Source of the DNA: a virus
UHGV virus genome: UHGV-0388326
DNA length: 39,034 nt
Direction: 5' to 3' (one strand)
Part shown: positions 28,180-29,747 of the stretch, in pieces
Layout: each line of letters starts with the position of its first letter
How positions within the stretch are numbered: position 1 is the stretch's first letter
Translations under genes and position numbers: made by a program
Notes under the pieces: generated by a model
Told to the model about the DNA's origin: nothing
Seen by the model: the letters and a program-made list of their open reading frames with translations, nothing else
Databases searched by the model: none

Positions 28180-28352
28180 CATGGCATTTTTCATGGTACT
28201 GATTTCCGGTGACGGTATATAAAACGGTATGGAAAATTTAAATGTTTTAAAAGTTGTTGCCAGTCAATTGCTTATGTTATCCGTAAATAATTGAGTGGGA
28301 ATGATTAACAGCTAACTCATAGCAAATCATTCCTATTCAGATGACAACTCAA

Positions 28353-28383
28353 CCCTCTGTTTTTACAGAGGGTTTTTGTTTTT
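28353..28383 (+). terminator. Rho-independent terminator after lysis cassette
   Basis: CCCTCTG-TTTTTA-CAGAGGG followed by TTTTTGTTTTT. Confidence 0.8.
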
Positions 28384-28439
28384 ATGTATTCATTTCTATT
28401 CACTCTACACCATATTTTTCGGCGGTACAGGTGACGGTA

Positions 28440-28454
28440 TTACCTTAAAGGTAT
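28440..28454. promoter_or_regulatory. TTACC-N5-GGTAA-like site upstream of int
   Basis: TTACCTTAAAGGTAT (one mismatch), nested between inverted GACGGTAT repeats. Confidence 0.4.
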
Positions 28455-28496
28455 ACTCTCATACCGTCATGAAAATGGTTTCTATACGGGTGAATT

Positions 28497-29747
28497 GTGC
28501 TTACCGATACAAAATTAAAAAACCTCAAGCCGCAGGACAAACTGTACAAGGTCTCCGATCGTGACGGGCTGTATGTAGCTGTGCTTACGTCAGGCACGGT
28601 CTCGTTTCGCTATGACTACCGTATCAACGGTCGCCGCGAAACACTGGTAATCGGGCAGTATGGGCGTGACGGTATCAGCCTGGCAGAAGCGCGAGAAGAA
28701 CTGATTGCTGCAAAGAAGCTGCTTAAAGCAGGTCAGTCGCCGGCTACGGCTAAACGTGACGGTATCAAAAAGATTCGTGGTGCCGAGACGTTTGCGGTAC
28801 ATACCGACAGTTATATGAAACACGTCATCTTGGCTGACAGTACCCGCGCAATGAAGCAGGCGGTGATCGACCGTGACATACTTCCGGTTCTTGGCAACAA
28901 AATGATGGCTGAAATTACCACATCGATGGTTCGTGATTTGTGTGACCGGATTGTCGAACGCGGTGGTCGGGCAACAGCAGTACAGGCCAGGGAGATCATC
29001 AGCAGCGTATACCGTCACGCCAATGACCGTGGTCATGGTTTGTTTAATCCTGCGGCTGATATTAAGCCTTCATCTATCGCCATATTTAAACCACGAGAGC
29101 GAACGCTGACACCAGAAGAAATTGGTCTTTTCTTCCGCACGCTGGATGCCATTGGTGCTATGGGCACTATGAAAATGGCTTTAAAACTGCTGCTTATCAC
29201 TATGGTTCGTAAGGGCGAATTCACCAATGCAACGTGGGATGAAATAGATTTTAAAAAATGGACATGGACAATTCCTTCAGACCGCATGAAGGGAAGCCGG
29301 GCGCATGTTATTTACCTGCCTAAACAGGCACAGGATATATTGGTCGGGTTGCAGATGTGCGCTGGTGGAAGTGAATATCTGGTTCCTGGTCGTTACAATT
29401 TCCGGAAGCCATTATCTAATGCCGCGCTGAACTCTCTGATCGACAGAACGGTGAAAATAATAAATGAAGATGGTGAGCATATTCAGGATTTTACCGTACA
29501 CGATATGCGCCGTACAGCCAGTACGTTGTTGCATGAGGCTGGTTATCCTTCAGACTGGATTGAAAAGGCTCTGGCACATGAGCAGAAAGGTGTGCGCGCC
29601 GTATATAACAAAGCGGAATACGCCAGACAGCGCGCCTACATGTTGCAGCAGTGGGCCGATATGATTGATTCCTGGATTAACGGCGAGCATACGGATCTGA
29701 TTCCGTTCTCCCCGTCGAAGTTTGAGAAGTGGATGGCGGGGGAATAA
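28497..29747 (+). CDS. int: tyrosine integrase
   Basis: 416 aa; N-terminus LTDTKLKNLKPQDKLYKVSDRDGLYV typical of P4-type integrases; C-terminal catalytic region with conserved R...HxxR...Y pattern; GTG start. Confidence 0.85.
   Translation: MLTDTKLKNLKPQDKLYKVSDRDGLYVAVLTSGTVSFRYDYRINGRRETLVIGQYGRDGISLAEAREELIAAKKLLKAGQSPATAKRDGIKKIRGAETFAVHTDSYMKHVILADSTRAMKQAVIDRDILPVLGNKMMAEITTSMVRDLCDRIVERGGRATAVQAREIISSVYRHANDRGHGLFNPAADIKPSSIAIFKPRERTLTPEEIGLFFRTLDAIGAMGTMKMALKLLLITMVRKGEFTNATWDEIDFKKWTWTIPSDRMKGSRAHVIYLPKQAQDILVGLQMCAGGSEYLVPGRYNFRKPLSNAALNSLIDRTVKIINEDGEHIQDFTVHDMRRTASTLLHEAGYPSDWIEKALAHEQKGVRAVYNKAEYARQRAYMLQQWADMIDSWINGEHTDLIPFSPSKFEKWMAGE

What the first reader, a model, noticed from the sequence alone, without database searches (positions are those of the whole stretch)
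28180..28500. Candidate attP with arm-type GACGGTAT repeats and a 9-bp inverted repeat
Between the lysis terminator and int there are four copies of (G)ACGGTAT in both orientations about 210 bp apart, and between them an AT-rich segment with the inverted repeat GGAATGATT...AATCATTCC (28298-28333). This is the expected architecture of an attP (arm sites flanking a core). The presence of an intact attP in the middle of the window is also why I read the window as a phage genome rather than an integrated prophage.
Basis: partly seen in the sequence, partly recalled or inferred. Interest (0 to 1): 0.45.

Follow-up and report, generated by a model that had tools for sequence, protein, structure and literature searches.

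The report
Phage attP targeting the guaA gene
This is the attachment site (attP) of an epsilon15/phiV10-type temperate phage, which integrates into the last codons of the host guaA gene; the site is real and well supported, but it is already known for this phage group.

Summary
GACGGTAT occurs 7 times in the window against 0.63 expected, and 6 of the 7 copies lie in 28211-29016.

Lysogen junctions in 569 of 5426 complete E. coli genomes map inside the flagged region:
- attL (guaA to int) matches the window from 28290 onwards.
- attR (Rz to yfgI) matches up to 28306.
- The core is therefore ATTGAGTGGGAATGATT (28290-28306), the last 15 nt of guaA plus TT. It is identical in the empty K-12 attB and to the published, Sanger-verified core of vB_EcoP_ZX5, phiV10 and epsilon15.

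The repeats are arm-type sites with consensus TGACGGTAW. The P-arm pair and nearly all of the P' arm are invariant in nine phages from four host genera. The motif is about 38-fold enriched between guaA and int in 29 related loci from gamma-, beta- and alphaproteobacteria.

Corrections:
- The 9-bp inverted repeat is not the crossover pair. Only its left arm, which holds the guaA stop codon, lies in the core.
- The terminator lies inside attP and copies the guaA terminator.
- Further motif copies inside int are under DNA-level selection.

The epsilon15 GenBank record already annotates the integrase sites. Verdict: already known.

The parts
28210..28218 (+). P-arm arm-type site P1, TGACGGTAT
   Evidence: Exact motif. 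Invariant in 9 phages although the flanks diverge. Annotated as an integrase binding site in epsilon15 record AY150271.2.
28222..28230 (+). P-arm arm-type site P2, AAACGGTAT, 12 bp after P1
   Evidence: ACGGTAT match. Invariant in 9 phages. The 12-bp tandem spacing matches the P' pairs seen across the family.
28262..28274 (+). IHF-like site AGTCAATTGCTTA, 1 mismatch to WATCAANNNNTTR
   Evidence: Pattern scan. TCAAT and TTA within it are invariant in the alignment. Overlaps an IHF annotation in the epsilon15 record. Binding not tested.
28284..28296 (-). Second IHF-like site ACTCAATTATTTA (1 mismatch), overlapping the left edge of the core
   Evidence: Binding not tested.
28290..28306 (.). Core: 17-bp identity between attP and attB, ATTGAGTGGGAATGATT (last 15 nt of guaA including TGA, plus TT)
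   Evidence: attL matches start at 28290 and attR matches end at 28304-28306 in E. coli lysogens. Four-way attP/attL/attR/attB alignment. Identical to the published core.
28293..28300 (.). Proposed crossover (overlap) region GAGTGGGA, flanked by imperfect inverted half-sites TAAATAATT and AATGATTAA
   Evidence: Inference from reading the sequence: the half-sites match 7 of 9 as an inverted repeat. GAGTGGGA is the proposed core recombination motif of the guaA-targeting GIsul2 integrase (PMC9376610). Cleavage positions not mapped.
28292..28339 (+). The left arm is the end of guaA; the right arm is phage-only.
   Evidence: Pairing is kept in 93.8% of cells in 9 phages, but 6 of 9 need a G-U pair, and covariation is not significant. 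Function unknown.
28351..28384 (+). Rho-independent terminator inside attP; near-copy of the native guaA terminator
   Evidence: Terminator scan. The 10-bp stem arms are identical to the K-12 guaA terminator. Conserved in 9 phages.
28396..28407 (.). Invariant block CTATTCACTCTA of unknown role
   Evidence: Invariant in 9 phages. No promoter match.
28420..28428 (+). P'-arm site P'1, degenerate (CGGCGGTAC), 12 bp before P'2
   Evidence: CGGTA conserved. A canonical GACGGTAT occupies this position in Klebsiella relatives.
28432..28440 (+). P'-arm site P'2, TGACGGTAT
   Evidence: Annotated as an integrase site in epsilon15. Lies 128 bp after the guaA stop, as in distant relatives.
28446..28454 (+). 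P'-arm site P'3, degenerate (TAAAGGTAT)
   Evidence: Canonical TTACGGTAT at this position in Klebsiella prophages. GGTATA is invariant.
28461..28469 (-). P'-arm site P'4, inverted TGACGGTAT
   Evidence: An inverted copy lies about 157-168 bp after the guaA stop in most related loci.
28497..29747 (+). int: tyrosine integrase with an arm-binding N-terminal domain
   Evidence: Pfam Arm-DNA-bind_3 (residues 2-87), Phage_int_M and Phage_integrase. In relatives, residues 1-56 are more conserved than residues 57-200 and, in all but two loci, than the catalytic domain.
28667..28675 (+). In-gene TGACGGTAT copy (codons R57-I60)
   Evidence: Conserved at +171 in all Enterobacterales relatives. D58 GAC and G59 GGT show zero synonymous variation. 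Annotated as an integrase site in epsilon15.
28757..28765 (+). In-gene TGACGGTAT copy (codons R87-I90)
   Evidence: G89 GGT shows zero synonymous variation. Annotated in epsilon15.
28795..28806 (.). In-gene palindrome CGGTAcaTACCG
   Evidence: Read directly from the sequence. T103 ACC shows zero synonymous variation. TACCGTC sits at +305 in several relatives.
30994..31242 (-). AlpA-family small DNA-binding protein, candidate excision directionality factor
   Evidence: Pfam Phage_AlpA. Homologues accompany int in distant loci. Role inferred, not tested.

Best explanation
Window 28210-28469 is the attP of a Uetakevirus (epsilon15/phiV10-like) phage; it may extend to about 28806.

The adjacent P4-type integrase has two DNA-binding modules:
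- Its N-terminal arm-binding domain recognises the 9-bp arm-type motif TGACGGTAW. There are two direct copies 12 bp apart in the P arm. The P' arm has three direct copies plus one inverted copy.
- Its core-binding and catalytic domains recognise the core.

With host bending proteins, probably IHF at the conserved TCAATT...TTA sites next to the core, the arms fold onto the core. This complex captures attB, the last 15 nt of guaA plus 2 nt. Strand exchange takes place inside the 17-bp identity ATTGAGTGGGAATGATT (28290-28306), most likely in GAGTGGG(A).

Integration leaves guaA intact, because the phage supplies identical final codons, the stop codon and a near-copy of the guaA terminator.

The P' sites end 28 bp before the int start codon, so Int probably also represses its own gene.

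Shown: the junction positions, the core identity, the motif's enrichment and conservation, and the Int domain content. Inferred: who binds the motif, the exact cleavage points, the IHF role and autoregulation.
For: Junctions and core:
- Lysogen junctions were found in 569 of 5426 E. coli genomes. attL (guaA to int) begins at window 28290 and attR (Rz to yfgI) ends at 28304-28306.
- The four-way alignment with the empty K-12 site shows a 17-bp identity and clean switches of flank on each side.
- The same 17 bp was verified by Sanger sequencing of attB, attL and attR for vB_EcoP_ZX5. That paper states the same core was shown for phiV10 and epsilon15 (PMC9782041).

Integrase:
- Int carries Arm-DNA-bind_3, Phage_int_M and Phage_integrase domains.

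Motif:
- 7 copies against 0.63 expected in the window.
- The P-arm block TGACGGTATATAAAACGGTA, the core and most of the P' arm are invariant in nine phages of Escherichia, Salmonella, Enterobacter and Klebsiella, while neighbouring bases vary.
- In 29 loci with guaA upstream of a related int (47-91% identity; gamma-, beta- and alphaproteobacteria), GACGGTA occurs at 14.0 per kb in the guaA-int spacer against 0.37 per kb elsewhere. The consensus is T-G-A-C-G-G-T-A-W.
- Site positions relative to the guaA stop recur across classes: a direct pair near +116/+128 and an inverted copy near +157 to +168.
- Int residues 1-56 stay 66-86% identical where residues 57-200 fall to 28-59% and the catalytic domain to 50-65%.

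Prior annotation and precedent:
- The epsilon15 GenBank record annotates the equivalent GTGACGGTAT sites as integrase binding sites.
- Int autoregulation through P' sites overlapping the int promoter is shown for KplE1 IntS, and that paper cites it for P4 (PMC2951348).
Against: - No binding, footprint or mutational data exist for the motif in this phage group in anything I could read. The epsilon15 annotation appears to be a pattern prediction.
- An AlpA-like gene accompanies int across the family, so the motif's binder is not uniquely determined by co-occurrence.
- The promoter scan found no sigma-70 match upstream of int, so autoregulation has no mapped promoter.
- The IHF sites each carry a mismatch.
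- The 17-bp identity has no polymorphism in E. coli, so the crossover cannot be placed more finely from these data.
Confidence: 0.87

Rival explanations
1. The TGACGGTAW repeats are binding sites for the AlpA-family protein (30994-31242, the candidate excision factor) rather than for the integrase arm-binding domain.
For: An AlpA-like gene lies just downstream of int in most related loci, including beta- and alphaproteobacterial ones. It therefore co-occurs with the motif as int does. Directionality factors commonly bind direct repeats in att arms and near int promoters: TorI in KplE1 does, and that paper cites Vis in P4 (PMC2951348).
Against: - The motif lies on both arms, in both orientations, in 6 or more copies. 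That is the pattern of arm-type sites, not of excision-factor sites, which usually occupy one arm.
- The AlpA-like protein is only 31-48% identical in distant loci, where the motif is unchanged. The Int N-terminal 56 residues stay 66-86% identical there.
- Int has a recognised arm-DNA-binding domain that needs sites.
Confidence: 0.08
2. The 9-bp inverted repeat GGAATGATT...AATCATTCC is the pair of core-type integrase sites, and the crossover lies between its arms (28307-28324).
For: Core-type sites are inverted repeats. The repeat is perfect over 9 bp and sits between the arm clusters.
Against: - attP/attB identity ends at 28306, so the loop and right arm are absent from attB. Strand exchange needs identity in the overlap region.
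- An 18-bp spacer is far larger than the 6-8 bp overlaps of tyrosine recombinases (established knowledge).
- In 6 of 9 relatives the second pair is G-T, tolerable in RNA but not in a DNA palindrome.
- The right arm is lost in the Scandinavium attL, L023.
Confidence: 0.02
3. The repeats upstream of and inside int are purely transcriptional operators for int expression and play no part in recombination. The functional attP would then be little more than the core.
For: The P' sites end 28 bp before the int start, and further copies lie within the first 310 nt of int. That placement would suit repression or a roadblock.
Against: - Two invariant copies lie in the P arm, on the far side of the core and terminator from int, where they cannot act on int transcription.
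- Integrases with an arm-binding domain require arm sites for integrative recombination (established for lambda; PMC2951348 introduction).
Confidence: 0.03

Closest known systems
attP of Uetakevirus phages epsilon15, phiV10 and vB_EcoP_ZX5 (integration at the 3' end of guaA)
   Same: - Identical 17-bp core attgagtgggaatgatt.
- Same position between the Rz spanin gene and int; the int start codon lies 190 bp after the core.
- Same GTGACGGTAT sites, terminator and IHF-like sites as annotated in AY150271.2.
- The region is 84-95% identical.
   Different: Only sequence-level differences in the spacers. This window's int is 100% identical over the compared part to a prophage int in E. coli 2017.15.01CC, while its lysis side is about 92-93% identical to phiV10. 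It is a mosaic member, not a new kind.
Lambda and P4-type heterobivalent integrase attP (arm sites, IHF bends, core)
   Same: - Arm-binding N-domain plus catalytic domain.
- Arm-type repeats on both sides of a core that differ from the core sequence.
- AT-rich spacers with IHF-like sites.
- int next to attP, with P' sites just upstream of int, as in P4 and KplE1.
   Different: - The target is the 3' end of a protein-coding gene rather than a tRNA gene (P4, KplE1) or an intergenic site (lambda).
- The P' arm is long: sites lie 118-165 bp from the core because a terminator sits between them.
- Extra conserved motif copies lie inside the int reading frame.
GIsul2 genomic-island integrase system (guaA 3' end, core GAGTGGGA)
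   Same: Same target gene end. The proposed core motif GAGTGGGA lies within this core at 28293-28300. An alpA gene accompanies int in both.
   Different: GIsul2 is a genomic island, not a phage. Homology of its integrase to this one was not tested here. No arm sites are described in the GIsul2 paper.

Membership tests
attP of a heterobivalent (arm-binding) tyrosine integrase | An adjacent tyrosine recombinase with an arm-DNA-binding N-terminal domain | tested here: met
   Pfam Arm-DNA-bind_3 E=8e-20, Phage_int_M and Phage_integrase, all above the curated cut-offs.
attP of a heterobivalent (arm-binding) tyrosine integrase | A short identity segment shared with attB, at which prophage junctions switch flanks | tested here: met
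   17-bp identity at 28290-28306. attL, attR and the empty attB were aligned. Junctions found in 569 genomes.
attP of a heterobivalent (arm-binding) tyrosine integrase | Repeated arm-type sequences on both sides of the core, unrelated to the core sequence | tested here: met
   TGACGGTAW copies at 28210, 28222 (P arm) and 28420, 28432, 28446, 28461 (P' arm). They are enriched and conserved.
attP of a heterobivalent (arm-binding) tyrosine integrase | Inverted core-type half-sites flanking a 6-8 bp overlap region | tested here: inconclusive
   TAAATAATT-GAGTGGG-AATGATTAA is a 7-of-9 imperfect inverted repeat, seen by inspection. Its left half is phage-specific and invariant. Cleavage sites are unknown.
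attP of a heterobivalent (arm-binding) tyrosine integrase | Sites for a host bending protein (IHF) between the arms and the core | tested here: inconclusive
   Two 1-mismatch matches to WATCAANNNNTTR lie in conserved blocks. There are no binding data.
attP of a heterobivalent (arm-binding) tyrosine integrase | Integrase physically binds the arm-type sites | not testable with these tools
   Needs gel-shift or footprinting experiments.
Uetakevirus guaA-targeting attP (epsilon15/phiV10/ZX5) | Core sequence attgagtgggaatgatt upstream of int | tested here: met
   Exact match at 28290-28306. The int start codon (28497) is 190 bp after the core's last base.
Uetakevirus guaA-targeting attP (epsilon15/phiV10/ZX5) | Genome context: a Uetakevirus genome with attP between the Rz spanin gene and int | tested here: met
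   Collinear with phiV10, epsilon15 and SPN1S. Rz matches DUF2514.
GIsul2-type guaA integrase family | Core recombination motif GAGTGGGA at the guaA 3' end | tested here: met
   Present at 28293-28300.
GIsul2-type guaA integrase family | Integrase homologous to GIsul2 Int | not tested
   No GIsul2 sequence was retrieved. The plasmid search returned a different P4-like integrase.

The most novel reading that the evidence does not exclude
The motif copies inside the int reading frame (28667-28675, 28757-28765, 28795-28806) are functional Int-binding sites. The coding sequence of the arm-binding domain would then carry the DNA sites that the same domain recognises. They could act as distal arm sites, giving an unusually long attP of about 600 bp, or as an autoregulatory operator or roadblock.

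More broadly, a single 9-bp arm code, TGACGGTAW, with fixed spacing from the core, would be shared by guaA-targeting integrases of phages and islands across alpha-, beta- and gammaproteobacteria. I found no description of this in the searchable literature.
Probability: 0.45. Interest if true: 0.4.

Novelty: already known. Interest (0 to 1): 0.2.

Why it matters
For this window it fixes the lysogeny module. It gives the exact integration site (the guaA 3' end) and the extent of attP, and it shows that the sequence is a free phage genome and not a prophage.

Practically, the core and arm map allow three things:
- Prediction of which hosts can be lysogenised: any host with ...ATTGAGTGGGAATGA at the end of guaA.
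- Design of junction PCRs.
- Design of a minimal attP/Int cassette.

The family-wide arm motif and the recoded in-gene copies are a modest addition to what is annotated for epsilon15. They could be used to find att boundaries of guaA-inserted islands, including GIsul2-like resistance islands.

Tried and rejected
Rejected, because attB identity stops at 28306.
- **TL-2011b as an independent test of the P arm.** Its record starts at the core, but its far end has no P arm or motif, so the record is not cut att-to-att. Uninformative.
- **Viral-contig scan with Int.** It returned 80 loci that were all at least 99% identical, mostly prophage calls starting at int. It added no new P arms.
- **Plasmid protein search for GIsul2 Int.** The hit I fetched was a different truncated P4-like integrase with a different upstream repeat and no GAGTGGGA.
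- **Kropinski 2007 (epsilon15 genome paper).** Not held in the library. I relied on its GenBank annotation and on its citation in PMC9782041.
- **Sigma-70 promoter scan upstream of int.** It found nothing. By eye, TATACT at 28452-28457 with GTGACG 15 bp upstream is a poor candidate, so I do not claim it.
- **Covariation test of the hairpin.** Not significant: 114 of 500 shuffles do as well.
- **GACGGTAT at 29009(-), and TACCG at 28502 and 28617.** Not positionally conserved, or synonymously variable in relatives. Treated as chance.

Full report
**Context**

The flagged interval lies between a DUF2514 Rz-type spanin gene (27697-28179, +) and a 416-aa integrase gene (28497-29747, +). The window is a Uetakevirus (epsilon15/phiV10-like) genome. 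The interval and its flanks are 92-93% identical to phiV10 and its E. coli relatives, about 88% to Salmonella SPN1S, 87% to epsilon15, and 81-84% to Enterobacter and Klebsiella members.

The two ends of the window map to adjacent positions in circularly permuted relatives such as vB_EcoP_PAS61. The left end lies just upstream of the small terminase gene, and there is no host DNA at either end. Reading the window as a free phage genome is therefore justified.

**Check of the observation**

- GACGGTAT lies at 28211(+), 28433(+) and 28461(-).
- ACGGTAT lies at 28224(+).
- The perfect 9-bp inverted repeat is 28298-28306 / 28325-28333.

GACGGTAT occurs 7 times in the window against 0.63 expected, and none of 100 shuffles reach 7. 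Six of the seven copies are packed into 28211-29016. The intervening segment has GC 0.31 against 0.485 for the window.

The inverted repeat alone is less remarkable: 4.5% of shuffles of the region contain one. One detail is off. The only terminator (28351-28384) is inside the region, not upstream of it.

**Where the crossover is**

Searching E. coli complete genomes found matches in 569 of 5426 genomes, typically two places each.
- One class of match starts at window 28290 and runs into int, with guaA immediately upstream (attL; L001).
- The other class runs from Rz to window 28304-28306 and is followed by yfgI (attR; L004).

I aligned attP, attL, attR and the empty site of K-12 MG1655. This gives a 17-bp identity, ATTGAGTGGGAATGATT (28290-28306). 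It is the last five codons of guaA (I-E-W-E-stop) plus TT, with clean exchange of flanks on either side.

This is exactly the core reported for vB_EcoP_ZX5, where attB, attL and attR were PCR-amplified and Sanger-sequenced. That paper states the same core was shown for phiV10 and epsilon15 (PMC9782041).

Within the identity, GAGTGGG(A) (28293-28300) is flanked by the imperfect inverted half-sites TAAATAATT and AATGATTAA, which match 7 of 9. GAGTGGGA is also the proposed recombination core of the guaA-targeting GIsul2 integrase (PMC9376610). I take this as the likely overlap region, but that is inference.

**The repeats as arm-type sites**

Int has an Arm-DNA-bind_3 domain (residues 2-87), a central domain and a catalytic domain, so arm sites are expected.

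I aligned nine phages from Escherichia, Salmonella, Enterobacter and Klebsiella. The fully or almost fully invariant blocks are:
- TGACGGTATATAAAACGGTA (28210-28229, the P arm);
- TCAATT..TTA (28264-28274);
- GTAAATAATTGAGTGGGAATGAT (28283-28305);
- the terminator stem;
- CTATTCACTCTA (28396-28407);
- the P' arm, CGGTA..TGACGGTATTACC...GGTATA...TACCGTC (28423-28468), which is nearly invariant with isolated substitutions.

The intervening sequence varies freely. Three of the phages even have a different Rz 3' end abutting an unchanged P arm.

Klebsiella relatives carry canonical ACGGTAT at two positions where this window has degenerate copies: 28420-28428 (CGGCGGTAC) and 28446-28454 (TAAAGGTAT). 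The P' arm therefore has three direct sites and one inverted site. The P arm has two direct sites 12 bp apart.

**Family-wide test**

A scan of one genome per species found 47 loci encoding relatives of Int. In 29 of them guaA (ending ...IEWE*) lies 191-360 bp upstream. These include beta- and alphaproteobacteria with only 47-60% Int identity.

Every one of these spacers carries copies of the same motif.
- GACGGTA occurs at 14.0 per kb in the spacers against 0.37 per kb in the rest of the loci.
- 131 CGGTA-containing sites give the consensus T-G-A-C-G-G-T-A-(T/A).
- The layout relative to the guaA stop recurs: a direct pair near +116/+128, an inverted copy near +157 to +168, and then further direct copies.
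- This window has sites at +118/+128, +142 and +157.

Int residues 1-56 remain 66-86% identical in relatives where residues 57-200 fall to 28-59% and the catalytic domain to 50-65%. That fits an unchanged arm specificity.

An AlpA-family gene (here 30994-31242, -) also travels with int, at 31-48% identity. It is the candidate excision factor and the only serious alternative binder of the motif. I rate that alternative low, because the motif lies on both arms and in both orientations, and because the AlpA-like protein diverges much more than the motif does.

**Copies inside int**

GTGACGGTAT recurs at 28666-28675 and 28756-28765, encoding R-D-G-I twice. A palindrome, CGGTAcaTACCG, lies at 28795-28806. 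The +171 and +261 copies are present in every Enterobacterales relative, down to 59% protein identity.

I made a codon alignment of 16 full-length int genes. Of 96 codons with an invariant, degenerate amino acid, only four show no synonymous variation: D58 GAC, G59 GGT, G89 GGT and T103 ACC. All four lie in these motif copies. The hypergeometric P is 1e-5.

These copies are therefore under selection at the DNA level. Beta- and alphaproteobacterial relatives lack them. They instead have extra copies upstream of int, or one at +66.

The epsilon15 GenBank record already marks the two in-gene GTGACGGTAT copies as integrase sites. Their role is unresolved: they could be distal arm sites or an autoregulatory operator.

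**The inverted repeat and the terminator**

The loop and the right arm are phage-only and absent from attB. The repeat therefore cannot be the pair of core-type sites.

As RNA, 28292-28339 folds into a 15-bp hairpin just before the terminator. Pairing is kept in 93.8% of cells across nine phages. However, six of them need a G-U pair, there is a single compensatory change, and the covariation measures are not significant. The repeat is lost in one Scandinavium prophage. The epsilon15 record places an RNase III site at the equivalent of about 28311-28347, overlapping the loop and right arm. I leave its function open.

The terminator has the same 10-bp stem arms as the native guaA terminator. In a lysogen, guaA therefore keeps its last codons, its stop codon and an equivalent terminator. 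The lysis operon acquires the native terminator at attR.

**Mechanism, with status of each step**

- Shown: the position of recombination, the identity with attB, conservation and enrichment of the motif, the domain content of Int, and preservation of guaA.
- Inferred: Int N-domain binding to TGACGGTAW; IHF bending at 28262-28274 and 28284-28296 (one mismatch each); strand exchange in GAGTGGG(A); and repression of int by Int bound to the P' sites, which end 28 bp before the start codon.

Autoregulation of this kind has precedent in KplE1 IntS and, as cited there, P4 Int (PMC2951348). No promoter was detected here.

**Novelty**

The core, the target gene and the integrase-site annotation are all in the literature or in GenBank for this phage group. 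The finding is therefore already known, and this window is one more member.

Two things go beyond what I could find described: the conservation of the 9-bp arm motif and its spacing across three proteobacterial classes, and the codon-level evidence for selection on the in-gene copies. Both are incremental.

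Noticed in passing
window 28351-28384: The terminator inside attP has 10-bp stem arms identical to the native E. coli guaA terminator (AACCCTCTGT/ACAGAGGGTT). The phage thus carries a mimic of the guaA 3' end plus terminator, with a diverged spacer between (45 bp against 25 bp).
   Followed up: partly
window 28667-28675, 28757-28765, 28795-28806: Arm-motif copies inside the int reading frame contain the only four invariant-amino-acid codons of int with zero synonymous variation among 16 Enterobacterales relatives (P about 1e-5).
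   Followed up: yes
L063 (NZ_CP148463.1) and hits H31-H35: Five E. coli chromosomes contain a contiguous attP flanked by phage genes on both sides, plus separate attL and attR matches. These are most simply tandem double lysogens at guaA.
   Followed up: partly
NZ_CP079771.1 and NZ_CP079768.1 (hits H38, H39, H167): Two 41,027-bp circular records filed as E. coli plasmids carry this integrase (98.6% aa identity) and attP. They are probably the phage genome assembled as a free circle.
   Followed up: no
L016-L054 (genome-contig loci): An int plus AlpA-like gene module sits next to the guaA stop codon in gamma-, beta- and alphaproteobacteria (Chromobacterium, Cupriavidus, Caulobacter, Phenylobacterium and others). 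It always carries TGACGGTAW repeats, which makes a broad guaA-targeting family.
   Followed up: partly
window 25119-26210 (-): A 363-aa Acyl_transf_3 membrane protein is encoded on the opposite strand, upstream of the lysis genes. It is plausibly an O-antigen acyltransferase, as in phiV10 serotype conversion.
   Followed up: no
window 29751-30592 (-): DUF1382 and MT-A70 family methyltransferase genes lie immediately downstream of int on the opposite strand, as in the guaA prophages of E. coli.
   Followed up: no
window 28396-28407: The 12-bp block CTATTCACTCTA between the terminator and the P' arm is invariant in nine phages. It matches no promoter, IHF or arm consensus.
   Followed up: no
L012 (JQ011317.1, TL-2011b, last 1 kb): The TL-2011b record begins at the att core, but its other end has no P arm or core. 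The deposited 44.8-kb record is therefore not bounded att-to-att.
   Followed up: partly
L064 (NZ_CP145691.1, 1100-1520): A truncated, different P4-like integrase on an IncI plasmid has its own upstream repeat (ATGGTAT-like) and no TGACGGTA. This shows that arm motifs differ between P4-like integrase lineages.
   Followed up: no
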